DNA of 32,000 bases from Betaproteobacteria bacterium UKL13-2 (GCA_001602455.1 CP012157.1:25733-57732), one strand, 5' to 3'; counted from the stretch's first letter, positions 4,611 through 31,993 are shown. The notes: generated by a model not told the origin, from the letters alone. Made by a program: numbers and translations.

Positions 4611-5933
4611 ATGCCTTCAAAACCACCGTCAATGCTAGGGTTTGGCAAGTCTGCTAATACCTCGCTACTCGCTACGCTGCCGCCGCTATCGCTCTACATC
4701 CATATTCCGTGGTGTATTCGCAAGTGCCCGTACTGCGATTTCAATTCGCATGAGGCGAAGAGCGCTGATGCGTCCACCACCAAAGCGCGGGCGGGGGTGC
4801 CGAAGTTGCACCCGCTTGCGGCTCCTCGGCCCACTGCGGGAGAAGAGTTGGGGAAAGGGGGAAACACGCTCCGCACCGAAGACGAGCAACGCTACATCGA
4901 CGCCCTCATCGCCGATCTTGATGTCACCTTGCCAAAGGTTTGGGGCCGCCGCGTTCACACCGTCTTTTTTGGCGGCGGCACACCCAGCCTATTTTCAGCC
5001 GCAGGAATCGACACCATCCTGGCCGCAGTGCGGGCGCGCCTAGCGGTCGAAGCCGACGCCGAAATCACACTCGAAGCCAACCCCGGCACATTTGAGGCAG
5101 AAAAATTCAAGGGTTATCGCGATGCAGGTGTGAATCGACTCTCGATTGGTATTCAAAGTTTCAACGCCAAACACCTTACGGCGCTCGGTCGCGTGCACAA
5201 CGACACTGAAGCCAAACGCGCCATTGAGATCGCTCAAGCGAATTTCGACAACATCAACCTCGACCTGATGTTTGCGCTACCGTCACAAACACTCGCCGAG
5301 TGTGCGAAAGATGTTGAGACAGCGCTATCGTTCGGCACTAACCATCTCTCGATTTACCATCTCACGCTCGAGCCCAACACACTCTTCCATCGTTTCCCGC
5401 CTGCGTTGCCCGATGACGAACTCGCCGCCGACATGCACGAGATGATTTTCGACAGGCTCGCAGCGGCGGGATACCAGCACTATGAGACTTCTGCTTACGC
5501 CAAGCCCGGCCAACAGTCCCGGCACAACCTCAACTACTGGCGCTTTGGCGACTACATCGGCATCGGTGCCGGCGCACACGGCAAGATTTCTTTCCCGGAC
5601 CGAATCACCCGCGAAGCGCGATACAAACAACCCAACGCATTTATGCAACAGGCAATGCTGGGTGACGCGATCCAAGACGCATCAAGCATTGGCCCCACCG
5701 ACTTGCCATTTGAATTCATGCTCAACGCACTCCGGCTAACGATGGGTTTTCCTGTCGCACTTTTTACCGAGCGCACTGGCTTGCCGATTACTGCAATCTC
5801 ACGCGAACTCGATGCGGCTGAAACGAAAGGGCTGATCACACGCGATCATTTACACATCAGCCCAACGCCGAAAGGTCGGCTGTTCTTAAACGATTTGTTG
5901 GAGATGTTTTTGCCTACGGCGCAAGCGCGTTAG
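4611..5933 (+). CDS. hemW: radical SAM heme chaperone / HemN-like protein (HemW/YggW family)
   Basis: LSLYIHIPWCIRKCPYCDFNS radical-SAM CxxxCxxC motif and GGGTPS. The start abuts the rdgB stop (TAAATG). It carries an extra low-complexity insert after the Cys motif. Confidence 0.85.
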   Translation: MPSKPPSMLGFGKSANTSLLATLPPLSLYIHIPWCIRKCPYCDFNSHEAKSADASTTKARAGVPKLHPLAAPRPTAGEELGKGGNTLRTEDEQRYIDALIADLDVTLPKVWGRRVHTVFFGGGTPSLFSAAGIDTILAAVRARLAVEADAEITLEANPGTFEAEKFKGYRDAGVNRLSIGIQSFNAKHLTALGRVHNDTEAKRAIEIAQANFDNINLDLMFALPSQTLAECAKDVETALSFGTNHLSIYHLTLEPNTLFHRFPPALPDDELAADMHEMIFDRLAAAGYQHYETSAYAKPGQQSRHNLNYWRFGDYIGIGAGAHGKISFPDRITREARYKQPNAFMQQAMLGDAIQDASSIGPTDLPFEFMLNALRLTMGFPVALFTERTGLPITAISRELDAAETKGLITRDHLHISPTPKGRLFLNDLLEMFLPTAQAR

Positions 5934-8900
5934 GGGAAGGATCAAAGGTGGAGAGCGCAATCGACGGCAAGCGACTGGTCGTGGTTGCGGTCAACGACGA
6001 GCCTGATGTAAAGAGCTTTTTTGCTGGTGTGAAGGCAAGTCAAGCGCAATACGGCTTGGTTGCCGCCGGCAGACCGCGGGGTAAGGAAATCCGATGAGTA
6101 CGCCGTCTGCGGGCGAGCATTTCATTCAACAATAACACCTTGGCTGAGAAGCTTGCCGGAAGCATCGCCGTTCGCTGCCCTCGTTTTGCGACACGCGGCA
6201 TTGGCACGGAACGGCCATCCTCGAAATAGAATTCGAGCGTAGTTGAGGGGTCTCATGCAATGCCGTTCGGAATGACAGTGATTTTTTAGGTCGTTACCTC
6301 TCAAATTGTCATCCCGAGCGCAGTCGAGGGGTCTCACAAAATACCGTTCGGAATGACAGTGATTTTTTAGGGCACCATCTCTCAAGTTGTCATCCCGAGC
6401 GCAGTCGAGGGATCTCATCCGGTTGCGTCTGGAAGAAGGTATTTTTCGATTCAGTTAGCGCAACGTTTTTCCCCCCAGCGTAACAAGCAATAGCTTCGTG
6501 CTTCGTTGTTTTACGCGATGAGATTCCTCACGAACTGCCGTTCGGAATGACAGTGATTTTTTAGGGCACCATCTCTCAAATTGTCATCCCGAGCGTAGTC
6601 GAGGGATCTCATCCGGTTGCGTCGGGAAGAAGGTATTTTTCGATTCAGTTAGCGCAACGCTTCACCCCAAAGAACGACGCGCAATCGCCTAGTGCTTCGT
6701 CGTTTTACGGGATGAGATTCCTCACGAACTGCCGTTCGGAATGACAGTGATTTTTTAGGGCACCATCTCTCAAGTTGTCATCGCGAGCGCAGTCGGCGAA
6801 TCTCACGAACTGCCGTTCGGAATGACAGTGATTTTTTAGGGCACCATCTCTCAAGTTGTCATCCCGAGCGCAGTCGAGGGATCTCATCCGGTTGCGTCTG
6901 GAAGAAGGTATTTTTCGATTCAGTTAGCGCAACGTTTTTCCCCAAGCGTAACAATCAATAGCTCACTGCTTCGTTGTTTTACGCGATGGGATTCCTCACG
7001 AACTGCCGTTCGGAATGACAGTGATTTTTTAGGGCACCATCTCTCAAATTGTCATCCCGAGCGTAGCCGAGGGATCTCTTCCGGTTGCATCGGGAAGAAG
7101 GCGTTTTTCGATTCAGTTAGCGCAACGTTTTTCCCCAAGCGTAACAATCAATAGCTCACTGCTTCGTTGTTTTACGCGATGGGATTCCTCACGAACTGCC
7201 GTTCGGAATGATAGTGATTTTTTAGGGCACCATCTCTCAAATTGTCATCCCGAGCGTAGCCGAGGGATCTCATCCGGTTGCATCGGGAAGAAGGTATTTT
7301 TCGATTCAGTTAGCGCAACGCTTCACCCCAAAGAACGACGCGCAATCGCTTAGTGCTTCGTTGTTTTACGCGATGAGATTCCTCACGAACTGCCGTTCGG
7401 AATGACAGTGATTTTTTAGGGCACCATCTCTCAAGTTGTCATCCCGAGCGTAGCCGAGGGATCTCATCCGGTTGCATCGGGAAGAAGGTATTTTTCGATT
7501 CAGTTAGCGCAACGCTTCACCCCAAAGAACGACGCGCAATCGCTTAGTGCTTCGTTGTTTTACGCGATGAGATTCCTCACGAACTGCCGTTCGGAATAAC
7601 AGTGATTTTTTAAGGCACCACCTCTCAAATTGTCATCCCGAGCGTAGTCGAGGGATCTCACGAACTGCCGTTCGGAATGACAGTGATTTTTTAGGGCACC
7701 ATCTCTCAAGTTGTCATCCCGAGCGCAGTCGAGGGATCTCATCCGGTTGCATCGGGAAGAAGGTATTTTTCGATTCAGTTAGCGCAACGCTTTTCCCCCC
7801 AGCGTAACAAGCAATAGCTTAGTGCTTCGTTGTTTTACGCGATGAGATTCCTCACGAACTGCCGTTCGGAATGACAGTGATTTTTTAGGGCACCATCTCT
7901 CAAATTGTCATCCCGAGCGTAGCCGAGGGATCTCATCCGGTTGCGTCGGGAAGAAGGCGTTTTTCAATTCAGTTGGCACAATGTTTTTCCCCAAGCGTAA
8001 CAATCAATAGCTCACTGCTTCGTTGTTTTACGGGATGAGATTCCTCACGAACTGCCGTTCGGAATGACAGTGATTTTTTAGGTCGTTACCTCTCAAGTTG
8101 TCATCCCGAGCGTAGTCGAGGGATCTCATCCGGTTGCATCGGGAAGAAGACGTTTTTCAATTCAGTTGGCGCAACGTTTTTCCCCCCAGCGTAACAAGCA
8201 ATAGCTTAGTGCTTCGTTGTTTTACGCGATGAGATTCCTCACGAACTGCCGTTCGGAATGACAGTGATTTTTTAGGGCACCATCTCTGAAGTTGTCATCC
8301 CGAGCGTAGTCGAGGGATCTCACGAAATACCGCACGGAATGACAGTAGTTTTTTAGGGCACCATCTCTCAAGTTGTCATCCCGAGCGTAGTCGAGGGATC
8401 TCTTCCGGTTGCATCGGGAAGAAGGCGTTTTTCGATTCAGTTGGCGCAACGTTTTTCCCCCCGGCGTAACAAGCAATCGCCTAGTGCTTCGTCGTTTTAC
8501 GGGATGAGATTCCTCACGAACTGCCGTTCGGAATGAAAGTGATTTTTTAGGGCACCACCTCTCAAGTTGTCATCGCGAGCGCAGTCGGCGAATCTCACGA
8601 ACTGCCGTTCGGAATGACAGTGATCTTTTTAAGGCACCATCTCTCAAATTGTCATCCCGAGCGTAGTCGAGGGATCTCATCCGGTTGCATCGGGAAGAAG
8701 GCGTTTTTCGATTCAGTTGACGCAATGTTTTTTCCCCCAGCGTAACAAGCAATCGCTTCGTGCTTCGTTGTTTTACGCGATGAGATTCCTCACAAAATAC
8801 CGTTCGGAATGACAGTGATTTTTTAAGGGCACAGCCTCTTAAATTGTCATCCCGAGCGTAGCCGAGGGGTCTCACGAAATACCGTTCGGAATGACAGTGA

Positions 8901-9242
8901 TATTTTAGGGCACCATCTCTCAAGTTGTCATCCCGAGCGTAGTCGAGGGATCTCTTCCGGTTGCATCGGGAAGAAGGCGTTTTTCGATTCAGTTGACGCA
9001 ATGTTTTTTCCCCAAGCGTAACAATCAATAGCTCACTGCTTCGTTGTTTTACGCGATGGGATTCCTCACGAACTGCCGTTCGGAATGACAGTAGTTTTTT
9101 AAGGCACCATCTTTCAAGTTGTCATCCCGAGCGTAGTCGAGGGATCTCTTCCGGTTGCATCGGGAAGAAGGCGTTTTTCGATTCAGTTGACGCAATGTTT
9201 TTTCCCCAAGCGTAACAATCAATAGCTCACTGCTTCGTTGTT

Positions 9243-10067
9243 TTACGCGATGGGATTCCTCACGAACTGCCGTTCGGAATGACAGTGATTTTTTTGGGCA
9301 CCATCTCTCAAGTTGTCATCGCGAGCGTAGCCGAGGGGTCTCACGAAATACCGTTCGGAATGACAGTGATTTTTTAGGGCACCATCTCTCAAGTTGTCAT
9401 CCCGAGCGTAGTCGAGGGATCTCTTCCGGTTGCATCGGGAAGAAGGCGTTTTTCGATTCAGTTGACGCAATGTTTTTTCCCCAAGCGTAACAAGCAATAG
9501 CTTAGTGCTTCGTTGTTTTACGCGATGAGATTCCTCACGAACTGCCGTTCGGAATGACAGTGATTTTTTAGGGCACCACCTCTCAAGTTGTCATCGCGAG
9601 CGTAGCCGAGGGGTCTCATGCAATGCCGTTCGGAATGACAGTGATTTTTTAGGGCACCATCTCTCAAGTTGTCATCCCGAGCGTAGTCGAGGGATCTCTT
9701 CCGGTTGCATCGGGAAGAAGGCGTTTTTCGATTCAGTTGACGCAATGTTTTTTCCCCAAGCGTAACAATCAATAGCTCACTGCTTCGTTGTTTTACGCGA
9801 TGGGATTCCTCACGAACTGCCGTTCGGAATGACAGTGATTTTTTTGGGCACCATCTCTCAAGTTGTCATCGCGAGCGTAGCCGAGGGGTCTCACGAAATA
9901 CCGTTCGGAATGACAGTGATTTTTTAGGGCACCATCTCTCAAGTTGTCATCCCGAGCGTAGTCGAGGGATCTCATCCGGTTGCATCGGGAAGAAGGCGTT
10001 TTTCGATTCAGTTGACGCAATGTTTTTTCCCCAAGCGTAACAATCAATAGCTCACTGCTTCGTTGTT
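9243..10067. repeat. three consecutive near-identical 275-bp units (B+A+A) of the array
   Basis: ORF-track artefact ORFs at 9243, 9518 and 9793 are offset by exactly 275 bp. Their translations differ at only a few residues (2 between the first and third units), which implies roughly 98-99% nucleotide identity. Confidence 0.9.
9352..9408. repeat. example of the module-A hairpin: 14-bp imperfect inverted repeat CGTTCGGAATGACA / TGTCATCCCGAGCG around a 29-nt loop
   Basis: Read directly. The arms pair at 12 Watson-Crick positions plus one wobble and one mismatch on either strand. The loop contains a T6 run. Confidence 0.8.
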
Positions 10068-10309
10068 TTACGCGATGGGATTCCTCACGAACTGCCGTTC
10101 GGAATGACAGTAGTTTTTTAGGGCATCACCTCTCAAAATGCCATCGCGAGCGCAGTCGGCGAATCTCACGAACTGCCGTTCGGAATGACAGTAGTTTTTT
10201 AGGGCACCATCTCTCAAAATGCCATCGCGAGCGCAGTCGGGGGATCTCATGCAATGCCGTTCGGAATGACAGTGGTTTTAAAAGAGGAACAAGCCAAATT
10301 GGTTATCCA

Positions 10310-10367
10310 CTCATTCAGCGGCAACGTCCCTCGACGCCGTAGGCGACCCATGAAATAGTCAGGCTAG
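10310..10367 (-). repeat. REP-like element (L-type arm, reverse orientation) at the right flank of the tandem array
   Basis: The reverse complement reads CTAGCCTGACTATTTCATGGGTCGCCTACGGCGTCGAGGGACGTTGCCGCTGAATGA. This matches the copies at 15610, 16337, 30369 and 30666. Confidence 0.8.
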
Positions 10368-10506
10368 TGTACCGTCGGGCACAGCGGGGCGGCCTAAATT
10401 GGTCTATGCTACCGGGATGCTCCAACAGAAGTCTTGGCGATCACCATGTGTTTATGTTCGCAGAGCAGTATCAGGCGCGAGCGGCTTGTTGTCCAAAGGA
10501 GTTCCC

Positions 10507-11586
10507 ATGAATGAAACACGCCCACCTACTGCCGCATCCGCCGTTGATGCCTTTGGCGAGCTTGCGCGTGAGGCGGTGCGGGTGTCCGACCTCGCCCGCG
10601 AAACCATACGCCGATCTGAACTTCGGTATCGTCGATTGTTTGAAGCCGCGCAAGATGGCATCTTGCTGATCAACGCGGAGACGGGCCAGATCGACGATGT
10701 CAACCCGTTTTTGATGAAGCTGCTCGACTACTCGTATGACGAATTTTTAGGAAAAAAACTCTGGGAAGTTGGTTCGTTCAAAGACATCCAACAGACCAAA
10801 GACATGTTCGAGATACTACAAGATTCCGGGTATGTCAGGTACGACGATTTGCCGCTTAAAACCCGTGCCGGCGTGACCATCGACGTTGAATTTGTAAGCA
10901 ACCTATATGAAGTCGCTGGCGTAAAAGTCATCCAGTGCAACATCCGAGACATTAGCGATCGCAAGCGGCTGGAGGTGGCTTTGCTGAAGCACCATGAGCA
11001 ACTAAAGATCGCCTTAACCAATACCGTCCAGGTGGTCACGATGATCACTGCGTTGTCCGATCCGTACACCTCTGGGCATGAGCGACGAGTGGCACAGCTC
11101 GCAGTCGCTATTGGCAAAGAACTAAGATTTAGCGATCCACGGCTTGAGGGCCTGAAAGTGGCCGGGCATCTTCACGATGTGGGCAAGGTGGCGTGTCCTA
11201 CACAAATACTGACCAAGCCAGGGAAAATTAGCCCGATCGAGTACCAGTTGATCCAGGCGCATGCCCAGGCCGGTTATGACATTTTGCACACGATGGAATG
11301 GCCTTGGCCGGTCGCAGAAGTGGCATTACAGCATCACGAGCGTATGGATGGAACGGGCTACCCGAACGGATTAAAGGGCGATGAAATTTTGCTTGAGGCG
11401 CGCATCGTTGCCGTGGCGGATGTTGTCGAAGCCATGGCTTCGCACCGCCCCTATCGGGTAGGACTCGGCCTCGAAAAAGCGCTTGCCGAAATTTTGCAAG
11501 GACGCGGTACGAAGTACGATGCGGCGGTGGTTGACGCTTGTCTAAAATTGTTTAACGAGCAAGGATTTCAACTCTTGCCGTCGTGA
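10507..11586 (+). CDS. PAS domain-containing HD-GYP c-di-GMP phosphodiesterase
   Basis: PAS region (YRRLFEAAQDGILLINAETGQIDDVNPF...). HD-GYP motifs are HLHDVGK and HHERMDGTGYPNGL. The ATG at 10507 is preceded by AAGGAG. The track ORF starts upstream at 10399. Confidence 0.9.
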   Translation: MNETRPPTAASAVDAFGELAREAVRVSDLARETIRRSELRYRRLFEAAQDGILLINAETGQIDDVNPFLMKLLDYSYDEFLGKKLWEVGSFKDIQQTKDMFEILQDSGYVRYDDLPLKTRAGVTIDVEFVSNLYEVAGVKVIQCNIRDISDRKRLEVALLKHHEQLKIALTNTVQVVTMITALSDPYTSGHERRVAQLAVAIGKELRFSDPRLEGLKVAGHLHDVGKVACPTQILTKPGKISPIEYQLIQAHAQAGYDILHTMEWPWPVAEVALQHHERMDGTGYPNGLKGDEILLEARIVAVADVVEAMASHRPYRVGLGLEKALAEILQGRGTKYDAAVVDACLKLFNEQGFQLLPS

Positions 11587-12961: not shown

Positions 12962-14755
12962 ATGACCACACCTTCCGACAATAGTCGCCGCAAATTCATG
13001 ATCAACACCACGGCAACGGCAGCCGCTGCGGTGACGGTTTCATTGGCTGGCTGCTCGAGTAGCAGTTCGAGTGCAGGCCCAGCGCCAAAGTTTGCATTCG
13101 GGGTTGCCAGTGGTGACCCCTTGGCTGACCGCGTTATTCTGTGGACACACGCGAAGGCAACGGACAGCAATGCGACTATTCCGCTCACCTGGCAAGTTGC
13201 AACCGACGCCGCATTCATCAACATTGTTGCGAGCGGTCGCGTTGATGCGACGGAGTCGAATGGCTTTACCGCGAAGGTAGACGCGACCGGGTTGAACGCT
13301 GGGACGGACTATTTCTATCGGTTCATTGGCGATCAAAACACCTTCTCGCCAGCAGGCATTACGCGCACCTTGCCCGCCGCAAGTGCGACATCGGTGAAGT
13401 TTGCCGTGTTCTCGTGTTCGCTCTATTCAGAAGGATTCTTCAACGCCTACGACGCGGCCGCAAAATCAGATGCGCAATTCGCGCTCCACCTCGGTGATTA
13501 CATCTACGAGTACGGTGCTGGCCTCAATCAATACGGTAACGCCAACGCCGCGGCCTTAGGTCGTGTGGTTGTACCGGCGACCGATATCGTCTCACTTGCC
13601 GACTATCGAGCACGCTACGCGCTGTACCGCTCGGACCCGAACCTGCAAGCGGTTCACGCCAAAATGCCTTTCATTACCGTTTGGGATGATCATGAGTTCG
13701 CCAACGACGCATATGTTGGCGGTGCAGAGAATCATAAGGCCGCAACACAAGGCGACTGGAATCAGCGCAAAGCAATCGCATCCAAGGCGTATCACGAGTG
13801 GCTACCGATCCGTACACCAGATCCAGCGAATCTGTTAAAAATCTACCGTTCGTTCGACTTCGGCAATCTCTTTTCTCTCCATATGTTGGATACCCGAATC
13901 GAAGGTCGCGACCAGCAGTACGATAGCTTCGGGGATGCCGATGGTGGCATTGGCCGCTACATCACTGCAATTACGCCAAACGCCGGTGGTGTAACGACTG
14001 ACAGCGCACGAAAAATGATTAGCAGCACACAACAAGCATGGTTAGCGTCTCAAATGAACGCCTCACGCGCAACCTGGCAGATTCTCGGTAATCAAGACAT
14101 CATGGCCAAGATGTGGATTCCGTTTTCCGTCGCACAGTATTTCGGCGGCGCGACCGCGAATCCAACATTGGGAGCGGCGGCGATTCAAACTTACTTGGCG
14201 GCTAAGGCAAAACGTGCGGCGGCGGGTGCAGCCACGCTTAACGCGAATGAAGCGGCGCTACTCAATCCTTCACAGAATCCGCGCCTACCATTCAACCTCG
14301 ACTCATGGGATGGATACCCGTCTCAACGTGAGGCCATTCTGCAAACGGTTAAAGCGCAGGGTAAGAAGCTGGTGGTTCTCTCCGGTGATTCTCACAACGG
14401 CTGGTTTACCAGTCTTACAACACTTAGTGGCGAACGAGTCGGCTTTGAGTACGCTGGCGCTTCGGTCACCTCTACTGGTTTCGAAAGCGCTGGCCTCGGT
14501 GGCCTCGCGAGCTCGCTTGACGGCAGCGCGCTCGTGCCCCAACTTGGCAACGCTGCAATTGGTGCAGGACTCGGCCTCATCGACGACCTGAACTACTCAG
14601 ACACGATTCGTCGCGGTTATCTCATCATGACGGTCACACCCACAGCGGTGAAAGGCGAGTACGTTTATGTCAGCACCGTCAAGGCGACAGCCTACACAAC
14701 CTTAGTCGGTCGTACGATCACCGTCAACGCGACGGGCGGTGTGACGTACGCTTAA
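12962..14755 (+). CDS. phoD: alkaline phosphatase D family (PhoD), Tat-exported lipoprotein
   Basis: Twin-arginine signal SRRKFM plus lipobox LAGC. PhoD-type metallophosphatase motifs are GDYIYEY, WDDHE and SGDSHN. GGAG lies 8 nt upstream of the ATG at 12962. Confidence 0.9.
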   Translation: MTTPSDNSRRKFMINTTATAAAAVTVSLAGCSSSSSSAGPAPKFAFGVASGDPLADRVILWTHAKATDSNATIPLTWQVATDAAFINIVASGRVDATESNGFTAKVDATGLNAGTDYFYRFIGDQNTFSPAGITRTLPAASATSVKFAVFSCSLYSEGFFNAYDAAAKSDAQFALHLGDYIYEYGAGLNQYGNANAAALGRVVVPATDIVSLADYRARYALYRSDPNLQAVHAKMPFITVWDDHEFANDAYVGGAENHKAATQGDWNQRKAIASKAYHEWLPIRTPDPANLLKIYRSFDFGNLFSLHMLDTRIEGRDQQYDSFGDADGGIGRYITAITPNAGGVTTDSARKMISSTQQAWLASQMNASRATWQILGNQDIMAKMWIPFSVAQYFGGATANPTLGAAAIQTYLAAKAKRAAAGAATLNANEAALLNPSQNPRLPFNLDSWDGYPSQREAILQTVKAQGKKLVVLSGDSHNGWFTSLTTLSGERVGFEYAGASVTSTGFESAGLGGLASSLDGSALVPQLGNAAIGAGLGLIDDLNYSDTIRRGYLIMTVTPTAVKGEYVYVSTVKATAYTTLVGRTITVNATGGVTYA

Positions 14756-14820
14756 CCTAAATGCTTCATGGGTCGCCCACTCACCCGCTTTCGAATGCGC
14801 CCCCATGAAATGTTCAGACG
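14756..14820. repeat. REPIN-like hairpin element directly after the phoD stop
   Basis: CCTAAATGCTTCATGGG...CCCCCATGAAATGTTCAG terminal inverted repeat. The inner arm TCGCCCACTCACCCGCTTTCGAATGCGC matches the right arm of the 30369-30565 element. Confidence 0.8.
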
Positions 14821-14866
14821 AGCCTCAAGAATGAAGGTGCCCGCCATGACCGCTGCAAGAAAGCGG

Positions 14867-15609: not shown

Positions 15610-15672
15610 CTATGAATATTTCATGGGTCGCCTGCTGCGCCGAGGGACGTTGCCCCTGAAACATTCAGGCTA
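15610..15672. repeat. REPIN-like element (minimal form)
   Basis: CTATGAATATTTCATGGGTCGCCTGCTGCGCCGAGGGACGTTGCCCCTGAAACATTCAGGCTA, with inverted termini TGAATATTTCA / TGAAACATTCA. Confidence 0.8.
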
Positions 15673-15680
15673 AGTTTGGC

Positions 15681-16232
15681 TCACGCCACGGCAACACGTT
15701 CGACGTAGGCCAAGAAGGCCGTAAGCGGCATTCCCGGCGCACCCACTGTTTTCGCCGCCTCATCAATGCGTCGAAGTGCAACCGCACTTGAAAAGGCGCT
15801 GGAACTGCGAAACGTCTGCGATTCCGCTTCGGTCATCGGGCCGCCTTGCCGCTTGAGCGAATCAATCGACCCTTGGGACAACAGCGCCTCGTAGGCGGCG
15901 TCATTCGCCACGAGATAGCGCTTGGCTTCTACGTGCAGGCGCACCGTCTCGACCACCGCACTGGTGAGGAACGGCGACAAAAATTCCGCGCCGATGTGTT
16001 CGTGATTGTCGCCGCCGTCGGTGTAGCGCCGACCTTCCGCCAGCACCACCATGTGGCCGATGTCGTGAAGGCCCGCCGCAACAATCAAGGCATCGTCCGC
16101 GCCGGCTGCCTGCGCTAATTGCGCACACTGCATGCTGTGATGCATCAACGTCACTGGCTCGGGGCCGTAGTGAACCGCCCCGTGGCGGGTAAACAACTGC
16201 GTGATTTTTTCGAGAAACTTATCTTTATCCAT
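15681..16232 (-). CDS. HD-domain protein of the phosphonate-degradation (PhnZ-like) oxygenase family
   Basis: 183 aa with HSMQCAQLAQAAGADDALIVAAGLHDIGH, HEHIGAEFL, HVEAKRYLV and RQGGPMTEAE. This matches the PhnZ/Phn-HD family pattern as I recall it. It sits in a phosphorus-acquisition context. Confidence 0.75.
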   Translation of the reverse strand: MDKDKFLEKITQLFTRHGAVHYGPEPVTLMHHSMQCAQLAQAAGADDALIVAAGLHDIGHMVVLAEGRRYTDGGDNHEHIGAEFLSPFLTSAVVETVRLHVEAKRYLVANDAAYEALLSQGSIDSLKRQGGPMTEAESQTFRSSSAFSSAVALRRIDEAAKTVGAPGMPLTAFLAYVERVAVA

Positions 16233-16336
16233 GAGCGGCGTACCTTTGAAATTCTGACCGCAGACCTACGCCAGTTAGGCATCGAGCGCGGCATCGATAT
16301 TGTGGCGTTCTTGGGCGTTGAGGACATCTGCCACTC

Positions 16337-16451
16337 GCCTGAATATTACACGGGTCGCCCGCTGCATCCAAGGACGTTGCCTCTAGGCGATTGGGAAGCC
16401 ATTTTGGCTCGTTCGGCTTTCGAACGTGCCCCCATGAAATGCTCAGGCTAG
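16337..16451. mobile_element. MITE-like element of the same REP family (L arm + spacer + R arm) between ptxD and the HD gene
   Basis: Left arm is GCCTGAATATTACACGGGTCGCCCGCTGCATCCAAGGACGTTGCCTCTAGGCG. Right arm is GCTTTCGAACGTGCCCCCATGAAATGCTCAGGCTAG. No coding capacity. Confidence 0.75.
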
Positions 16452-16613
16452 GCCAAGAGCGAAGGAGGTAAGGAAGAGTCAGGTTTTGGCGAGTACACGA
16501 CGCATGGGGAGTCCTCTATTGAGTTGTAAAGTTAGTGATGATATTAAATGTGAGCGGCACTCGCGGCGCCCATGCAACACACAGGCAGCGCTCATCCAAC
16601 GCACAGGCAGCGC

Positions 16614-21479: not shown

Positions 21480-22229
21480 ATGGTCGTTCAACTCATCAAG
21501 CCGGTACTCGCGCCGATGCTCATCGCACAGGCAAAACGCCTGCGCCGTATCGCACTCGAATTGCCCGAACCATCTGGCGAGCGGCATGGCGTGGCTAGGG
21601 CACCCGATGCAGTTAGAGGGTTACCTGCACTTTCAATACTGATCGCCGGTGATTCATCCGCCGCAGGCGTCGGTGCGGCGACGCAGGCCGAGGCCTTGGC
21701 CCCGCAACTGGCCGCCGCACTGGCGCAACGAATCGGGCGCGATGTCCGCTGGCACCTATTTGCACAAACAGGCTTAACGTCGGCGGGCGTACTCACATTG
21801 TTACGCACAAAGTCGCTGCCGTCGGCCGACGCGGCGGTCGTTATTGTCGGGGTAAATGACATCACCAACAATGTTGCCATCGGTCATGCGCTACGCGCGC
21901 GCAATCGAATTTTGCGTCTGTTGCAGGAGCGCACGGGCCTCCGGCACGTGTTGTTTCCGGGCCTGCCTGCGGTAGAGCGTTTTCCGTTGTTGCCTCAACC
22001 GCTCGCTTGGTATGGTGGTGCGGAAGCGCGACGCAGCAATAGCATGCAAGCCCGTTGGGCGGCCCATCCACGCCGTGCCTCGCTGGTCTCGCATCTGCCG
22101 ATGGACGGGTTCACACATCCCCAACTGATGGCAGAAGATGGTTTCCATCCCTCATCGGTATTGTATTCAATGGTGGCAGCACACTTTGCCGAACACCTTG
22201 CGTTAAGAGTTGAATCGCTGCCGCGTTGA
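21480..22229 (+). CDS. SGNH/GDSL-family hydrolase
   Basis: Block I IAGDSSAAGVG, block III VGVNDI and block V DGFHPS. Confidence 0.8.
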   Translation: MVVQLIKPVLAPMLIAQAKRLRRIALELPEPSGERHGVARAPDAVRGLPALSILIAGDSSAAGVGAATQAEALAPQLAAALAQRIGRDVRWHLFAQTGLTSAGVLTLLRTKSLPSADAAVVIVGVNDITNNVAIGHALRARNRILRLLQERTGLRHVLFPGLPAVERFPLLPQPLAWYGGAEARRSNSMQARWAAHPRRASLVSHLPMDGFTHPQLMAEDGFHPSSVLYSMVAAHFAEHLALRVESLPR

Positions 22230-22233
22230 CCTG

Positions 22234-22286
22234 GCCTGAATGCTTCACCGGCAGCCCGCCGCTTCGGAGGCGCGTTGACTACGCGG
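22234..22286 (+). repeat. diverged REP-like element 45 bp upstream of the RAYT-like gene
   Basis: GCCTGAATGCTTCACCGGCAGCCCGCCGCTTCGGAGGCGCGTTGACTACGCGG aligns with the L-type arm, at roughly 70% identity by eye. Confidence 0.55.
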
Positions 22287-22331: not shown

Positions 22332-23045
22332 ATGCCCCGTCGCCCTCGCATCCAACTCGATAACGTCCCGCTCCACATCGTGCAGCGCGGCCACAACCGC
22401 GAGGCGTGCTTCTCGGGCGTTGAAGACTACCAAAGCTACTTGTACTGGCTAGAAGAAGCGCTCCACAACCATGATTGCAAGCTGCACGCCTACGTGCTCA
22501 TGACAAACCATGTTCACCTCTTGCTCACCCCCAAGAAGGCTAATCTCGTTCCACGCTTGATCATGTCCATCGGTCGCCGCTATGTCCAATACATCAACCG
22601 AACCTACGGCCGCACCGGCGCACTGTGGGATAGCCGCTATAAGTCTTCTGTGGTGCATGCGGATAGCTACCTGTTGACCTGCCAGCGCTATATCGAACTG
22701 AACCCCGTCCGTGCGGCGATGGTGGACGACGCCGCACACTACCGTTGGAGCAGCTACCGCCACAACGCACTCGGGCAACCCGACTCTCGTCTGTCGCCGC
22801 ATCCGGTCTATACCGCCATGGCGGCGAGCGACAAAGCGCGGCAAGCAGCCTATCGTGCCCTGTTTCGAGCCGAACTCGATTCGGATGCGATTGACGACAT
22901 CAGGCTGGCGCTGAATCAAAATCAACCAATCGGCAGTAACCGATTTCATACGCAGATTGCGAAGAAACTGGGCGAGCGGCGCGAAGCGCGACCGCGTGGC
23001 CGACCTCGGCTAAAATCGAATGCCGAAGAAGTGCTGCCGGGGTAA
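22332..23045 (+). CDS. REP-associated tyrosine transposase-like protein (IS200/IS605 Y1 HUH family, COG1943 type)
   Basis: PRRPRI...HIVQRGHNREACF N-terminus, HUH motif NHVHLLL and catalytic-Tyr region CQRYIELNPVRA. No adjacent tnpB and no IS ends were seen. Confidence 0.85.
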   Translation: MPRRPRIQLDNVPLHIVQRGHNREACFSGVEDYQSYLYWLEEALHNHDCKLHAYVLMTNHVHLLLTPKKANLVPRLIMSIGRRYVQYINRTYGRTGALWDSRYKSSVVHADSYLLTCQRYIELNPVRAAMVDDAAHYRWSSYRHNALGQPDSRLSPHPVYTAMAASDKARQAAYRALFRAELDSDAIDDIRLALNQNQPIGSNRFHTQIAKKLGERREARPRGRPRLKSNAEEVLPG

Positions 23046-28280: not shown

Positions 28281-30341
28281 ATGAAAGCAGCACGCGATAC
28301 TACGCTTCTAATTGAGCGGCTGGTGCCGACGATAATTGTCGCTGGTGCTCTAGCGGGTTGGAATGGCCTCGCCGTTGGCCAGATTTCCGTCGCCGGGTCT
28401 TTATTTTTTCTGGCGCTGGCCACGTTGAGCGTTGTGGTTGGCGGCGTGTTTGTCCGTCGTGTGCTCGGGCCTTCGCCAAAGTTCGCGAGTTATTCAATTC
28501 GACTTGTGATCGGCTTCCTAGCCCTAAACACGGTACTCTACGTGACGGTGTTGATCCTGCCGCTGCCAATCTCAGCATCCGCACTAATCGTATTAGTCGG
28601 TGGCATCGTACTTTGGTGGGCGCTCCGAGGCAATCTCGCGCTCGCGGACCAATTCAAGGCACCGCGCAGTGAATCATGGTTTTTACTGTTCTGTGTAATC
28701 GCCACAACGTTCTGGTGCCAAGACAGCTTCAGATTGCTGCTTGATGGCGCCAGTGAATCAACCCTCCAAGGATGGCCAGATACTTTTTTCCATCTCCGCC
28801 AGATCAGCGCATTTGCAGCGGCGCAGGGTTCGCAATCCCTGTCCGATATTCAAATGGCCGGCGCACCAACGCACCCGTACCATTTTGCAAGCTATATGCT
28901 GCCGGCGACGCTGTTATCGCTCACCTCGCAATCTTCGGTCCAAGTCTACGGTGGCACCTACCTCCCTTTCGGCCTGCTGCTGTTAGCGCTGGCGGCGTTT
29001 TCACTGCTCGCCAGCGTGTTTGGCAATCGGGCGGCGATGGCCGGTGCCGCCGCACTACTGTGTACGCCAGACGCCTCCCAACAAGGTTTTGGCAACAGCT
29101 TTCTCAGCTACCATTGGCTCCAGAATATCGCCCCTGCGGGCGTGTACTGCATTTCGATCTTGGCCGTGGCTTGGCTAACCATGTTCGAAGCGTGCCGTGA
29201 ACGGCGTCTGCTATTGGTCGGCGTTGCCTACGCCATCGCCGCCTGCGCGCTCGTTTTTAAAGCGCAATTTTTTGTTGCCGCAGCGTATCTGCTACTGGTG
29301 TTCCCAGCATTTTTTATGGTCGGAATCTCAACTAATGCGCGGCGACTTCACTTCTACGGTATGACGGCTATATTTGTGCTTACCGTCTATATCAGCCAGT
29401 TCGCGTCGAGCGTTCCCGTGTTACGCCTAGATGGCAGCGGAATCTCAGGCTATGGTTTCTCCCTGCTATCGGCCCAACGCGAGGGGATTTTCAGCAGCGC
29501 AGTCGCCTATGTGTTCGAAGTCGCAACTGGTGGCACTTTTGTCCTCGCTACCGCAGCAGTTCTGCTTTTCGGCACCTTCGGCGTATGGATCATCGTCTAC
29601 CCGCTCTTGTTCAATCGCGTACGGACGCGTTTTTCGCTCATGGCTGCGCTGTTCCCAGTGCTCATTGTGCTCAATTATTTAGTGATGTCGCAAGGTTTGG
29701 CGCTAGATTCTCGTGCGATAGGGCGTCCAGAAGAGCTACTACACCGACCGTTCGTCTGGGCTTACTTCATTTTCGTGATTTGGTCTGCCGCCGCTGTCTA
29801 TGCGATGCTACTGCCCGAGGAGAGCGCGGGCTCCGAGTCAGCATGGGGTGCACAGCAAGACCGCTTTGCCCCGGCTTTGGTGGCGTTCGTCGCAACGCTC
29901 GCGTTAGCGGTTCCGGCTTTCCTGGGGCGCGGCATCCATTCGTTAGTACTTTGGTATCCGGACGTTCGGGGCGTCGCAATTCCGTCATGCGTCGTTAAAT
30001 CGGCAAACTACATCCGCACTAACAGTAAGGCGTTAGATGTGGTGCAGGCCTCGGATAATGACCCTCATTTTGTGGTGAGCGCGCTAACAGAACGCCAATT
30101 ATTCGTCGCGGCAGTAGGCGGCGTTCGTACTCCTGAGGGCGTCTATCGACGACTCAGTCAAGTTAACTACCGACTCAACCGAATGACAGGTTCTGACGAG
30201 GTGGCCGCGTTTTTTAACCAGAACGGGATAGCTTGGTACTTGCGGCGCGCTGACGCCACGCTTACGTGGTCAGAAGTGACTGACAAATTCGTTGTGTTCC
30301 GCTGCGAGTCGGTTCGGGTCTACCATTTTCCGCCAAGCTGA
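28281..30341 (+). CDS. large polytopic membrane protein (13 or more predicted TM helices plus a ~130-aa C-terminal soluble domain), GT-C-like architecture, function unknown
   Basis: 686-aa ORF with many hydrophobic segments. It sits after the GT2 and methyltransferase genes. I recognised no diagnostic motif. Confidence 0.7.
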   Translation: MKAARDTTLLIERLVPTIIVAGALAGWNGLAVGQISVAGSLFFLALATLSVVVGGVFVRRVLGPSPKFASYSIRLVIGFLALNTVLYVTVLILPLPISASALIVLVGGIVLWWALRGNLALADQFKAPRSESWFLLFCVIATTFWCQDSFRLLLDGASESTLQGWPDTFFHLRQISAFAAAQGSQSLSDIQMAGAPTHPYHFASYMLPATLLSLTSQSSVQVYGGTYLPFGLLLLALAAFSLLASVFGNRAAMAGAAALLCTPDASQQGFGNSFLSYHWLQNIAPAGVYCISILAVAWLTMFEACRERRLLLVGVAYAIAACALVFKAQFFVAAAYLLLVFPAFFMVGISTNARRLHFYGMTAIFVLTVYISQFASSVPVLRLDGSGISGYGFSLLSAQREGIFSSAVAYVFEVATGGTFVLATAAVLLFGTFGVWIIVYPLLFNRVRTRFSLMAALFPVLIVLNYLVMSQGLALDSRAIGRPEELLHRPFVWAYFIFVIWSAAAVYAMLLPEESAGSESAWGAQQDRFAPALVAFVATLALAVPAFLGRGIHSLVLWYPDVRGVAIPSCVVKSANYIRTNSKALDVVQASDNDPHFVVSALTERQLFVAAVGGVRTPEGVYRRLSQVNYRLNRMTGSDEVAAFFNQNGIAWYLRRADATLTWSEVTDKFVVFRCESVRVYHFPPS

Positions 30342-30368
30342 TGGCCGTCTTTGGGGCATAGGCCACCC

Positions 30369-30565
30369 TAGCCTGAATGTTTCATTGGTCGCCCGCTGTG
30401 TCGAAGGGGGTTGCCTCTGAACGAGCGAATAACCAATTTGGATCGCTCCTCCTTCACCGTGGATGCAGGCTGCACGGTCGCTCTCGGGCGATTGGTCGGC
30501 CAAGCGAAAAATCGCTCGCCCACTCACCCACTTTCAAACGCACCCCCATGAAATATTCAGGCTAG
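30369..30565. mobile_element. 197-bp MITE-like element of the REP family (L arm, about 95-bp core, R arm)
   Basis: The termini TAGCCTGAATGTTTCATTGGTCGCCCGCTG... and ...TCGCCCACTCACCCACTTTCAAACGCACCCCCATGAAATATTCAGGCTAG are inverted repeats. No ORF. Confidence 0.8.
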
Positions 30566-30665
30566 CCCTTCGCCCCTGATAGGGTAGGCAATCGCTGGCT
30601 TAGCGTGCCAAGCGTTTGCTGCTGCGCCGGGGAGACACTGTTTATGTTGCTGGTTTGCCAACCAC

Positions 30666-30715
30666 TCAGAGGCAACGCCCTTCGACGCGGTGAGCGACCC
30701 ATGAAATACTCAGCC
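30666..30715 (-). repeat. REP-like element (L-type arm, reverse orientation)
   Basis: The reverse complement reads GGCTGAGTATTTCATGGGTCGCTCACCGCGTCGAAGGGCGTTGCCTCTGA. Confidence 0.8.
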
Positions 30716-30748
30716 TTATCCCCTTTCACGCTTGGCCCCGCGATGATG

Positions 30749-31993
30749 CTACCCCCGTACCGCCACCGGTCCGCAGGCCAGTGCGATGACGCGCATGGCG
30801 ACCGCATCGATCGGTTCGGTGCTGATCAGTTCTTCCACTAGGTCGGCACCATGGGGATTGTGAGTTACCTTGCTTGTGCGCACGATCTGTTGCATCCGCC
30901 CGGGCCCTGTCAGTTCGGCGATCACGCGCAATTCGAGGCCGGGCAGGTAGCGGCGCAAGACGCTGGTCAAGACACTACGTACCGCCTCACGCAGGGCTGG
31001 TTCGAAGGTGCCGTAGCAGGGGACGCCGTTCGCTCGGAAAGCGATGTCGACGTCGTCGCCGTTGTAGTCCCAGCCGCACAGATTCGAGCTAACGGTGGTC
31101 TGGATCACTAGGCCGACCTGGCTACGCCAATTCTGAACTTCGAAGCGCTCTGGCGATAGTGTTCTGACGATCTCGCCCCAACGGTCATCGGCCATCTGCG
31201 TCAACTCTTCTTCTCGTACCCGCGCGGCCTCAAGCTCGCCGCGTTGCTGCTCGTCAAATGCGCGCAGGACGGCGCGGACGCGATCTTGCAAGGCGGTAAG
31301 GGCTGGTGAGCCGGTGAGTATCTTAGGCAGATAGTGCTCAGCGAAAAGCATGAGCCGGTTGCGGCTTTCGTCATCCAACGTGTGGGCCTCGATCTCGGCG
31401 ACCAGCCGCGTGGCGGTCTGCTCCAGGCGATTGCGTAGGTCATTCTGCAAGGTTCTTACCGACTCGTAGACCTCAGCGATCGGCTTCTGGCTTCGGCCCT
31501 GAACCCAGTCTTGGTTTTTTTCGAAATTCTCCAGCCAATCGGCGCTGCGCAGCACTGCAGACCAGGTCTCAGGCATGCCAAGCTGCTGGTGTCCATCGAC
31601 CGCCCCAGCCAGCATCTCCGCCAGCGTCATCGAGTCGGTTTCGTCCTTCCAGTCTTCAATTTGGTGGTCGAGGGAAGTGCGGGACCTCGTGATGTCCTCA
31701 AGCAGTTCGGCGAGCCGGCTGCGGGCATAGGCTTCGCCAAAGGTCTTCATGCCGGAGTCGACTTCCTTCACCAGGCTCGCCGCTTCGGCGTCGCCACCTG
31801 CCTCTGCGGCGCTGCGCCGAATCCGGCCACTGACGTGATGAAGATTACTGACGATGAATCGGCTATCACCAGGGCTGCGGCCCTCTGTGACCAACATGGC
31901 GTCCTTGAGGTAGGTCCGGAACTCATCCATTGCATTCTTGGCCTCGTTCAACGCCTCGGTCGCGGCATGGCGATCCGACATTTTTCGCAGCAC
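30749..31993 (-). CDS. hypothetical protein, helical/coiled-coil-looking N-terminal two thirds and distinct C-terminal domain
   Basis: 414-aa ORF with coding-like composition and no family recognised. The track start at 31993 is a GTG and the frame stays open to the window edge. The first ATG is at 31981, so the N-terminus may be incomplete. Confidence 0.6.
   Translation of the reverse strand: MLRKMSDRHAATEALNEAKNAMDEFRTYLKDAMLVTEGRSPGDSRFIVSNLHHVSGRIRRSAAEAGGDAEAASLVKEVDSGMKTFGEAYARSRLAELLEDITRSRTSLDHQIEDWKDETDSMTLAEMLAGAVDGHQQLGMPETWSAVLRSADWLENFEKNQDWVQGRSQKPIAEVYESVRTLQNDLRNRLEQTATRLVAEIEAHTLDDESRNRLMLFAEHYLPKILTGSPALTALQDRVRAVLRAFDEQQRGELEAARVREEELTQMADDRWGEIVRTLSPERFEVQNWRSQVGLVIQTTVSSNLCGWDYNGDDVDIAFRANGVPCYGTFEPALREAVRSVLTSVLRRYLPGLELRVIAELTGPGRMQQIVRTSKVTHNPHGADLVEELISTEPIDAVAMRVIALACGPVAVRG

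What the first reader, a model, noticed from the sequence alone, without database searches (positions are those of the whole stretch)
6232..10279. 4.05-kb non-coding higher-order tandem array (81-bp hairpin module x28, 113-bp module x16) between hemW and a c-di-GMP gene pair
**What the sequence shows**
- About 13% of the window is a satellite-like array with strict architecture.
- Module A is 81 bp and module B is 113 bp. Only B+A (194 bp) and B+A+A (275 bp) units occur.
- The order is AA-B-A-B-AA-B-A-B-A-B-A-B-AA-B-A-B-A-B-AA-B-AA-B-AA-B-A-B-AA-B-AA-B-AA-B-AAa.
- Copies are more than 90% identical by eye. The last three 275-bp units (9243-10067) are about 99% identical.
- Both ends of the array carry the same A variant (TCTCATGCAATGCCGTTCGG at 6251 and 10247). 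The left edge starts inside an A tail and the right edge stops inside an A head.

**What it is not**
- There is no convincing protein-coding potential, no rRNA or tRNA, and no unique spacers.
- Kilobase-scale non-coding tandem arrays are rare in bacterial chromosomes. I cannot assign this one to a named family.
- The GTCATCCCGAGCG...CGAGGGATCTC motif resembles palindromic repeats that produce recurrent junk ORFs (CHSER.../...ARDDN...) in many genomes.

**Open hypotheses**
- (i) Local amplification of a REPIN/MITE-like element by unequal crossing-over.
- (ii) A multi-copy structured ncRNA locus.
- (iii) A multivalent protein-binding platform.
Basis: seen in the sequence. Interest (0 to 1): 0.8.

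Follow-up and report, generated by a model that had tools for sequence, protein, structure and literature searches.

The report
Giant hairpin-repeat mosaic array (NIME-like)
The 4-kb block is a real, non-coding, strain-variable array of about 55 short hairpin motifs in alternating orientation. These motifs are of the same class that Ssn single-strand DNA nucleases recognise and that forms the "NIME" repeat arrays of Neisseria, so it is a striking but essentially known kind of bacterial repeat cluster.

Summary
Window 6232-10279 holds 27 full and 1 truncated 81-bp A modules and 16 B modules of 112-113 bp, in exactly the order reported. It has no coding potential, tRNA, Rfam hit, or recurrent promoter or terminator.

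Re-phasing shows the real unit: a 26-30-nt motif, GTCAT-YCC-GA-(N6-14)-GA-GGR-ATC. It occurs 31 times exactly (0 expected by chance), and about 55 times counting degenerate copies, in strictly alternating orientation.
- Module A is two inverted motifs around an AT-rich spacer.
- Module B is a 113-bp insert between tail-to-tail motifs.

The motif has the GTC-palindrome-C layout of the Neisseria NTS/SRM repeats, which the GIY-YIG ssDNA nuclease SsnA cuts. The identical 30-mer occurs in unrelated low-GC organisms and in 17 viral contigs. The same motif variant flanks GIY-YIG genes in metagenomic loci. The architecture mirrors Neisseria NIME arrays and E. coli BIME-2.

Independent assemblies of the same freshwater betaproteobacterial species confirm the array:
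- They break inside it.
- They show different module orders.
- One carries an apparent array-less allele.
- One places an array at a second locus.

Best reading: a recombinationally amplified SRM-type hairpin cluster. No ssn gene lies in the window, so Ssn targeting is inferred, not shown.

The parts
6232..10279 (.). Whole mosaic array: 27 full and 1 truncated A modules (81 bp) and 16 B modules (112-113 bp)
9340..9420 (+). Representative module A. It consists of an inverted motif copy (arm-, 9340-9366), a 28-nt AT-rich spacer (38% GC) and a forward motif copy (arm+, 9395-9420 plus CTC)
9421..9533 (+). Representative module B (an RS-like insert between tail-to-tail motifs). It has a conserved 5' 50 nt with its own small hairpin, a variable ~35-nt centre in 3-4 variants, and a conserved 3' end. 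In the majority variant, with the two bases before it, it shows an 8-bp terminal inverted repeat ATCTCATC...GATGAGAT
9396..9421 (+). Forward hairpin motif (arm+): GTC|ATCCC-GA-GCGTAGTC-GA-GGGAT|C. There are 17 exact-pattern copies on the + strand of the array
9529..9558 (-). Reverse hairpin motif (arm-): GTC|ATTCC-GA-ACGGCAGTTCGT-GA-GGAAT|C on the minus strand. There are 14 exact-pattern copies. Copies at A-A junctions are fused or truncated
6234..6280 (+). Left terminal junction (CGAGCGTAGTTGAGGGGT + CTCATGCAATGCCGTTCGGAATGACAGTG). This 47-nt piece is all that remains in the array-less allele of contig L173
10246..10279 (+). Right terminal truncated A head. It shares the 30-nt TCTCATGCAATGCCGTTCGGAATGACAGTG with the left end, so it is the likely recombination substrate for pop-out
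4632..5933 (+). hemW (433 aa with the start used in other assemblies), the left neighbour
10507..11586 (+). PAS/HD-GYP c-di-GMP phosphodiesterase-type gene (359 aa, 99% identical to P0001), the right neighbour
10281..10370 (.). Copy of a second, unrelated dispersed repeat family that abuts the right edge of the array. It is context, not part of the array

Best explanation
**What it is.** The region is a NIME/BIME-like mosaic array built from one short hairpin motif of the NTS/SRM class. This is the class of repeat that Ssn GIY-YIG nucleases bind and cut as single-stranded DNA.

**Shown here.**
- About 55 copies of GTCAT-YCC-GA-(N6-14)-GA-GGR-ATC alternate in orientation.
- Head-to-head pairs enclose a 28-31-nt AT-rich spacer. 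This is module A.
- Tail-to-tail pairs are either fused (the A-A junction) or separated by a 113-bp insert (module B).
- The array is non-coding and has no recurrent promoter or terminator.
- It differs in length and module order between strains.
- It occurs at a second locus or more in the lineage.
- It has an apparent array-less allele that retains one 47-nt junction.

**Inferred.**
- A doublet of the motif landed between hemW and the HD-GYP operon.
- It was then amplified, and keeps being reshuffled, by unequal homologous recombination or replication slippage in the 81-, 194- and 275-bp registers.
- Recombination between the identical 30-nt terminal variants can excise the whole array.
- In single-stranded DNA (during replication, transformation or repair) each motif folds into a hairpin: a 5-bp closing stem, a tandem G.A pair and a short inner stem.
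- Neighbouring inverted copies can also pair with each other.
- If the host encodes an Ssn homologue, both strands would present many cleavage or binding sites. The locus would then be a recombination-prone, ssDNA-restricted hotspot, as proposed for NTS clusters in Neisseria.
- No selected effect on the neighbouring genes is implied.
For: **Architecture and significance.** The pattern GTCATYCCGAN{6,14}GAGGRATC hits 31 times in the window, all inside the array, 17 on the + strand and 14 on the - strand. Shuffles give 0 hits.

**Layout matches NTS.** NTS is CGTC|ATTCCCGCGMAVGCGGGAAT|CYRG. The GTC upstream governs cleavage and the C downstream governs binding (PMC11893778).

**Cross-taxon conservation.**
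- The identical 30-mer occurs in L130, a 43%-GC contig whose tetranucleotide composition is unrelated to the window (r=0.05).
- The motif occurs exactly in 17 viral contigs of 45-66% GC.

**Gene association.**
- Nine metagenome loci recovered with the doublet pattern have a 93-110-aa GIY-YIG ORF next to the motif, by regex. These are seven distinct ORF sequences, each confirmed as Pfam PF01541.
- In L085 the gene is flanked on both sides by A-like doublets of the same GA-type motif. L148 has the motif at the gene start.

**NIME-like properties.**
- Hairpins alternate with 28-113-bp repeat elements.
- GC follows a wave: arms 53-61%, spacer 38%, B 47%.
- Syntenic arrays differ in repeat number. 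Both the GC wave and this variation were described for NIMEs (PMC1797815).

**Dynamics.**
- Contigs of the same species (HD-GYP protein 98-99% identical) all break in the array.
- L173 joins the left and right flanks through one 47-nt junction.
- L183 carries an array beside Fer2/MoCoBD genes.
Against: - The published degenerate SRM search pattern gives 0 exact hits in the window. Arms match only with 1-2 mismatches, a level also reached in background sequence at 1.6 hits per kb.
- The dRS3 pattern is absent.
- Individual arms are predicted to be weak hairpins. With DNA parameters, arm+ folds at -2.4 kcal/mol (z = -0.2) and arm- at about -6 (z = -2.5 to -2.9), against -9 (z = -5.5) for NTS. 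The tandem G.A stabilisation is my inference and is not in the energy model.
- A motif scan found no GIY-YIG gene in the 32-kb window. None was noted in the partial flanks held for this lineage, which were not scanned in full. Whether the genome encodes Ssn is unknown.
- No copy of A or B lies elsewhere in the window. Dispersal is shown only by one second locus.
- The array-less allele could be an assembler shortcut. However, the shared segment is 30 nt and the contig name indicates k=141.
Confidence: 0.7

Rival explanations
1. REP/BIME cluster mobilised by the RAYT-like Y1 (IS200-type) transposase encoded 12 kb away. On this reading the arms are that enzyme's REP sequences and the array is a giant BIME.
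For: - The window encodes a 237-aa Y1_Tnp protein at 22332-23045 (Pfam E = 5.6e-14). Its best NCBIfam hit is REP-associated tyrosine transposase.
- Inverted hairpins alternating with two linker types is the BIME-2 layout (from my own knowledge of Gilson and Bachellier's work; the analogy is also drawn in PMC11893778).
Against: - The RAYT score of 63.9 bits is below the family cut-off of 80.
- The gene is not flanked by A or B sequences.
- A different dispersed repeat family (core GCGACCCATGAAAT) has a copy directly upstream of the gene. That family is the better candidate for its REP.
- The arms carry GTCAT rather than the GTAG-type 5' tetranucleotide of REPs.
Confidence: 0.07
2. A multi-copy locus of structured small RNAs, with each A or B+A unit acting as a gene, comparable to tandem sRNA arrays such as cyanobacterial NsiR1.
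For: - Module A folds as RNA at -24 kcal/mol (z = -2.3) on the + strand.
- The units are co-oriented with both flanking genes.
Against: - No Rfam family matches, even at E<=10.
- Promoter-like sites number 2 against 3.3 expected, and terminator-like sites 2 against 6.1 expected. Neither recurs per unit.
- Across 72 distinct A copies, no base pair shows a two-sided compensatory change. Variation breaks pairs or gives wobble pairs.
- The array at the second locus is inverted relative to its downstream gene.
- SsnA-type recognition is specific to DNA.
Confidence: 0.05
3. A multivalent binding platform for a host DNA-binding protein, such as a nucleoid protein, gyrase or IHF as reported for BIMEs, or a site-specific recombinase as proposed for dRS3. 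On this reading it is selected for chromosome structure or for regulating the c-di-GMP operon.
For: - The 5' half of each arm is nearly invariant: CCGTTCGGAATGACAGT and TGTCATC[C/G]CGAGCG across 72 distinct copies.
- The units are regularly spaced.
- Precedents exist in the BIME and NIME literature.
Against: - An array-less allele apparently exists in the same species with the same flanking genes.
- Array length and order vary freely.
- A second array sits beside unrelated genes.
- Together these points argue against a locus-specific selected role.
Confidence: 0.1
4. Assembly artefact: a collapsed, expanded or chimeric repeat.
For: Repeats of this kind are often mis-assembled. Most short-read contigs stop inside this one.
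Against: - The same left edge (L188) and right edge (L174-L182, L184) appear in many independent samples.
- All-array contigs reach 3.66 kb.
- Unit variants are ordered non-randomly.
Confidence: 0.02

Closest known systems
Neisseria intergenic mosaic elements (NIME arrays: dRS3/NTS hairpins alternating with RS elements)
   Same: - Hairpin motifs alternate with 19-214-bp repeat elements in long intergenic arrays.
- GC content follows a wave: hairpins GC-rich, spacers AT-rich.
- Some RS elements have short terminal inverted repeats.
- Syntenic arrays differ in number and length between strains.
- The host is a betaproteobacterium (PMC1797815).
   Different: - There is no dRS3 (ATTCCC-N8-GGGAAT) match.
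- The hairpin is longer and imperfect, with a conserved tandem GA.
- Only two spacer families (the 28-nt spacer and B) are used, against more than 100 RS families, which gives a satellite-like higher-order periodicity.
- Copies alternate strictly in orientation.
- At 4 kb it is four times the one NIME array whose size I read (~1 kb).
- The host is a freshwater, uncultured lineage whose HemW is only 70% identical to the nearest genome in the collection.
NTS / Ssn-related motifs (SRM) and the SsnA GIY-YIG ssDNA nuclease (Chenal et al. 2025, PMC11893778)
   Same: - The oriented layout is GTC + palindrome + C.
- The motif class is spread across phyla.
- The same motif variant flanks small single-domain GIY-YIG genes on both sides, the NTS-ssnA-NTS arrangement.
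   Different: - It fails the published SRM regular expression.
- The predicted hairpin is weak.
- No ssn gene lies in the window.
- Cleavage has not been tested.
E. coli BIME-2 / REP clusters and REPINs with RAYT transposases
   Same: - Inverted palindromic units occur in alternating orientation.
- There are distinct head-to-head and tail-to-tail linkers, the latter in short and long forms.
- Units are locally amplified in tandem.
- Doublets form larger hairpins. (All from my own knowledge; the analogy is noted.)
   Different: - The motif sequence is different and has no GTAG.
- The RAYT-like gene present is linked to another repeat family.
- The array is several-fold larger than I recall for BIMEs.

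Membership tests
NTS/SRM (Ssn-related motif) repeats | Matches the published degenerate SRM pattern HGTCWY-N(0-2)-YYVSBRH-N(0-5)-WNVSBRG-N(0-2)-RNCYNB | tested here: not met
   There are 0 exact matches on either strand of the window. With up to 2 substitutions there are 19 hits in the array (4.7 per kb) against 1.6 per kb in the rest of the window. The failing positions are the conserved GA/GA.
NTS/SRM (Ssn-related motif) repeats | Oriented layout: conserved GTC(A) immediately 5' of a palindrome and a C immediately 3' of it | tested here: met
   The arms read TGTC|ATCCC...GGGAT|CTCA and TGTC|ATTCC...GGAAT|CTCA. There are 31 exact pattern matches against 0 expected. The determinants are described in PMC11893778.
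NTS/SRM (Ssn-related motif) repeats | The core forms a stable ssDNA hairpin | tested here: inconclusive
   DNA folding gives arm+ -2.4 kcal/mol (z = -0.2), arm- about -6 (z = -2.5 to -2.9) and NTS -9 (z = -5.5). A 5-bp closing stem, a tandem G.A and 1-4 further pairs can be drawn by hand, but the energy model does not credit them.
NTS/SRM (Ssn-related motif) repeats | Spatial association of the motif with a cd10448-type single-domain GIY-YIG (ssn) gene | tested here: met
   This holds for the motif class and the GA-type variant in other organisms. A 93-110-aa GIY-YIG ORF lies beside the motif in 9 metagenome loci (7 distinct sequences, each PF01541-positive). L085 is flanked on both sides and L148 has the motif at the gene start. 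CDD cd10448 membership itself was not tested.
NTS/SRM (Ssn-related motif) repeats | The host genome encodes an Ssn homologue that cuts the motif as ssDNA | not testable with these tools
   A motif scan found no GIY-YIG ORF in the 32-kb window. The rest of the genome is not available and there is no biochemistry.
NIME arrays | 20-bp dRS3 inverted repeat ATTCCC-N8-GGGAAT as the flanking unit | tested here: not met
   There are 0 matches even with 1 mismatch. The arms are ATTCC-N16-GGAAT and ATCCC-N12-GGGAT.
NIME arrays | Arrays of hairpin repeats separated by 19-214-bp RS elements, with a GC wave and inter-strain variation in number and length | tested here: met
   GC 53-61% in arms, 38% in the spacer, 47% in B; different module orders, a short-B form, A-A-A runs. 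The definition is in PMC1797815.
REP/BIME with RAYT | REP units flank, and are recognised by, a RAYT (Y1 transposase) gene | tested here: not met
   The RAYT-like gene at 22332-23045 has no A or B sequence nearby. A different repeat family lies directly upstream of it.
Rfam RNA families / tandem sRNA genes | Covariance-model match, or a promoter and terminator per unit, with compensatory base changes | tested here: not met
   no hit; no recurrent sites; no two-sided changes in 72 distinct copies.

The most novel reading that the evidence does not exclude
The GA-type motif (GTCAT-YCC-GA...GA-GGR-ATC) may define a separate, cross-phylum specificity class of Ssn nucleases that the published SRM pattern misses. 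Kilobase arrays like this one may be made and maintained by that enzyme. One route would be nicking of hairpins on both strands, priming template switching or break-induced amplification. Under this reading the array would be an active, enzyme-driven recombination and ssDNA-restriction hotspot (or a nuclease sponge), not a passive product of unequal crossing-over.
Probability: 0.15. Interest if true: 0.7.

Novelty: new variant of a known kind. Interest (0 to 1): 0.5.

Why it matters
NIME arrays were described in 2007 as peculiar to Neisseria. The Ssn/NTS system was characterised only in 2025, mainly in Neisseria and Wolbachia.

This locus shows an uncultured freshwater betaproteobacterium that has built a far more regular, satellite-like array from the same class of oriented hairpin. 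The array holds about 55 hairpins over 4 kb, and natural alleles appear to range from zero to several kilobases.

That makes it a clean natural system for three questions:
- Do Ssn nucleases act on, or create, such arrays?
- How do hairpin clusters expand and collapse?
- Does the widespread 'GTCATCCCGAGCG...CGAGGGATC' palindrome, the source of many spurious ORFs in databases, belong to the Ssn world even though it escapes the published search motif?

In practical terms, it also explains recurrent contig breaks and junk 'hypothetical proteins' (...ARDDN..., ...CHSER...) in metagenome assemblies.

Tried and rejected
- **RNA gene searches.** Rfam at gathering threshold over the whole window and at E<=10 over 9000-10400 found nothing. 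ARAGORN found no tRNA or tmRNA.
- **Promoter and terminator scan.** No per-unit sites, and fewer than in shuffles.
- **Plasmids and phages.** BLASTN ('distant' mode) of a 275-bp unit found no match in either collection.
- **Exact 33-mer of A in one genome per GTDB species.** No match.
- **Synteny.** Eighty hemW loci of other Betaproteobacteria (best 70% identity) hold no A or B copy. The closest, L001, has no tandem repeats.
- **Rest of the window.** No A or B copy outside the array.
- **ssn gene in the window.** No GIY-YIG motif in any of the six frames.
- **Published patterns.** The strict SRM pattern and the dRS3 pattern each give 0 hits.
- **Covariation in the A hairpin and the closing stems.** No two-sided changes. 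For the C/G closing-pair variants all four haplotype combinations occur, which points to recombination and not to selection for pairing.
- **RAYT link.** Rejected because the gene is not flanked by the array's repeats.
- **Literature searches.** Four 13-mers of the GTCATCCCGAGCG type, and peptide strings recalled from junk ORFs of related repeats, found nothing. The 11-mer GTCATTCCCGC led to the Ssn paper. Its supplementary tables are not held.
- **Viral contigs.** The lineage-specific arm- variant and a B segment are both absent.


Full report
**1.

Tandem Repeats Finder reports nested periodicities of 81, 194, 275 and 469 bp from 6234 to 10279. Anchored matching recovers 27 full A modules, one truncated A head at the right edge, and 16 B modules.

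- A copies average 91% pairwise identity and B copies 89%.
- The last three 275-bp units are 96.7-98.5% identical.
- All six frames carry 49-66 stop codons.
- There is no tRNA or tmRNA and no Rfam match, even at E<=10.
- Promoter-like and terminator-like sites are no more frequent than in shuffles and do not recur per unit.

The neighbours are as stated. On the left lie rdgB (Ham1) and hemW. On the right lie a PAS/HD-GYP gene and a gene with an MshEN-type c-di-GMP-binding motif. HemW is at best 70% identical to any genome representative in the collection, all of them Betaproteobacteria.

**2. It is not an assembly artefact, and it is dynamic**

The HD-GYP protein has a 99%-identical cluster (P0001) seen on 22 contigs, and a 98%-identical protein in an NCBI MAG.

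- Nine of these contigs start inside the array and share the window's right edge.
- A contig that encodes a HemW identical to the window's reproduces the left edge and then stops inside the array.
- Junk ORFs translated from the array retrieved four further contigs made wholly of A and B modules. One is 3.66 kb and includes the right edge.
- Module order differs among all of these. A-A-A runs and a ~60-bp internally deleted B also occur.

Contig L173 (36 kb) runs from hemW straight into the HD-GYP gene. Between the flanks it has only CGAGCGTAGTTGAGGGGT + CTCATGCAATGCCGTTCGGAATGACAGTG. That is one hybrid of the window's left-end and right-end junctions, and several flank SNPs show it comes from another strain. 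The two ends of the array share only 30 identical nucleotides, while the contig name indicates k=141. I therefore read this as a genuine pop-out allele, though an assembler shortcut is not excluded.

Contig L183 (101 kb) ends in an array of at least 0.8 kb beside Fer2/MoCoBD genes. Its GC is 55.7% and its tetranucleotide composition correlates with the window at r=0.94. That array is inverted relative to its downstream gene, so the lineage has at least a second locus.

**3. Re-phasing reveals the true unit**

The end of A and the start of the next A (or of A after B) are inverted copies of one motif:

- arm+: TGTC|ATCCC-GA-GCGTAGTC-GA-GGGAT|CTCA
- arm- (reverse complement): TGTC|ATTCC-GA-ACGGCAGTTCGT-GA-GGAAT|CTCA

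The pattern GTCATYCCGA-N(6-14)-GAGGRATC occurs 31 times in the window. All hits are in the array, 17 on the + strand and 14 on the - strand, against 0 in 100 shuffles. Counting the fused, degenerate copies at A-A junctions, there are about 55 motif copies in strict alternation.

- Module A is therefore an inverted doublet around a 28-nt spacer of 38% GC.
- Module B is an insert between tail-to-tail motifs. In its majority form it carries 8-bp terminal inverted repeats that extend the pairing of the arms. The 171-nt arm+/B/arm- segment folds at -27 kcal/mol (z = -2.3).
- The 5' half of each arm is nearly invariant across 72 distinct A copies. The loops, spacer and 3' halves vary.
- No base pair shows a compensatory double change, and closing-pair variants occur in all four combinations.

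The data therefore neither require nor exclude selection for structure.

**4. The motif belongs to a described class**

A literature search for related 11-mers led to Chenal et al. 2025 (PMC11893778). That paper makes four points relevant here:

- The Neisseria NTS, CGTC|ATTCCCGCGMAVGCGGGAAT|CYRG, extends the dRS3 palindrome.
- It is bound and cut, only as ssDNA and only in one orientation, by the 94-aa GIY-YIG nuclease SsnA.
- The three bases 5' of the palindrome govern cleavage, and the C just 3' of it governs binding.
- Related 'SRM' motifs flank ssn homologues across phyla.

The arms in this window have the same GTC-palindrome-C layout.

My metagenome scan for the doublet geometry returned many loci. 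By eye, roughly half carry the architecture GATTCC-stem-loop-stem-GGAATGACAG / spacer / TGTCATCC-stem-loop-stem-GGGATC.

- Nine of these loci have a 93-110-aa ORF with the GIY-YIG signature next to the motif. These represent seven distinct ORF sequences, each confirmed as Pfam PF01541.
- In L085 the gene is bracketed on both sides by A-like doublets of the same GA-type motif, and L148 has the motif at the gene start.
- The exact 30-mer GTCATCCCGAGCGTAGCCGAGGGATCTCAT of the array also occurs in L130, a 43%-GC contig of unrelated composition.
- GTCATCCCGAGCGNAGNCGAGGGATC occurs in 17 viral contigs of 45-66% GC. I estimate that far fewer than one such match would arise by chance for 24 fixed bases.
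- The arm- variant and module B are lineage-specific.

**5. The architecture is that of known mosaic elements**

NIMEs are dRS3 hairpins flanking RS elements of 19-214 bp, often in long arrays. They show a GC wave, and their number and length differ between strains. They were said in 2007 not to occur outside Neisseria (PMC1797815).

The present array shares all of these properties. It also recalls E. coli BIME-2, which has alternating REP orientation, one head-to-head linker, and short or long tail-to-tail linkers. That comparison rests on my own knowledge.

It differs from NIMEs in four ways: no dRS3, only two spacer families, a strict higher-order periodicity, and its size.

**6. Membership caveats**

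- The published degenerate SRM expression does not match (0 hits; 1-2 mismatches are needed, a level also common in background sequence).
- The arms fold weakly in the standard DNA energy model. I can draw 5 Watson-Crick pairs, a tandem G.A/A.G and 1-4 further pairs. Tandem sheared G.A pairs are known to stabilise helices, but that is inference.
- No GIY-YIG gene was found in the window, and the rest of the genome is out of reach.

I therefore file the array as working like an NTS/SRM cluster in a NIME-like arrangement. I do not file it as a proven Ssn target.

**7. Rivals**

- **RAYT/REP.** A RAYT-like Y1 transposase sits at 22332-23045. It is not flanked by the array's repeats. A different dispersed family (core GCGACCCATGAAAT, at least 7 copies in 22 kb, one abutting the array at 10281-10370) has a copy just upstream of it.
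- **ncRNA locus.** This reading lacks any support.
- **Selected protein-binding platform.** This is hard to square with an array-less allele and free variation in length.

**8. Verdict**

This is a genuine, striking, strain-variable hairpin-repeat array. Its core motif and architecture fall within known kinds (NTS/SRM; NIME/BIME). It was most likely built by recombinational amplification of an inverted doublet.

It is a new variant in four respects: the GA-type motif that escapes the published pattern, the satellite-like regularity, the size, and the host. It is not a new category.

Noticed in passing
window 10281-10370, 14753-14824, 15613-15681, 16334-16453, 30365-30455, 30511-30567, 30651-30716; diverged copy ~22229-22285: A second, unrelated dispersed intergenic repeat family of ~50-90 nt occurs in both orientations (core GGCGACCCATGAAATA[G/T]TCAGGCTAG). 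One copy directly abuts the right edge of the array. Another lies immediately upstream of the RAYT-like gene, so this family is the likely REP/REPIN partner of that gene.
   Followed up: partly
window 22332-23045 (+): A 237-aa IS200-like Y1 transposase (Pfam Y1_Tnp, E = 5.6e-14). Its best NCBIfam hit is REP-associated tyrosine transposase at 63.9 bits, below the cut-off of 80. In contig L173 of the same species the gene after the LysR regulator is a beta-lactamase-family gene, whereas the window has a GDSL-lipase gene followed by this RAYT-like gene. This segment is therefore variable between strains.
   Followed up: partly
contig without DNA (18.5 kb, ENA+JGI): The same HD-GYP operon lies behind FtsK-LolA-SurE-PCMT-LysM/M23-ManC, with a 786-bp gap, instead of behind hemW. 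This is either a rearrangement with a breakpoint at the array site, or a chimeric join through arrays at two loci. The latter would imply a third array locus.
   Followed up: no
L185 and L187 (all-array contigs); L184 391-553: Sister arrays contain a ~60-bp internally deleted form of B (B positions 76-113 joined to 1-24) and runs of three A modules. Neither occurs in the window.
   Followed up: partly
L190-L206 (IMG/VR viral contigs): Exact copies of GTCATCCCGAGCGNAGNCGAGGGATC occur in 17 viral contigs of 45-66% GC. By eye most are solo, and some sit at gene boundaries. A few have an inverted partner of the ...CTCGAAATGAC type. A regex scan found no adjacent GIY-YIG ORF in the held flanks.
   Followed up: partly
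window 28281-30341 (+) and 30749-31993 (-): Two long ORFs (686 aa and 414 aa) have no NCBIfam match, and the 686-aa ORF also has no Pfam match. The 29-30 kb stretch has a strong AT skew of -0.29.
   Followed up: no
window 6122-6418, 8222-8476, 8570-9028, 9243-9497, 9518-9772, 9793-10047 (all on the minus strand): The array generates spurious ORFs of 84-152 aa (...RSLDYARDDNLRDGALKNHCHSER...). Nine such 'hypothetical proteins' are already in public protein collections. They are useful as a handle for finding more arrays and as candidates for spurious-ORF filters.
   Followed up: yes
window 8120-8152 (-) and the 5' part of every B module: The start of B carries its own small hairpin (CTTCC(G)G-TTGCAT-CGGGAAG). 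In one copy this, read on the minus strand, comes within 2 mismatches of the SRM pattern (CGTCTTCTTCCCGATGCAACCGGATGAGATCCC). It may be a third, decayed motif copy or a chance match.
   Followed up: no
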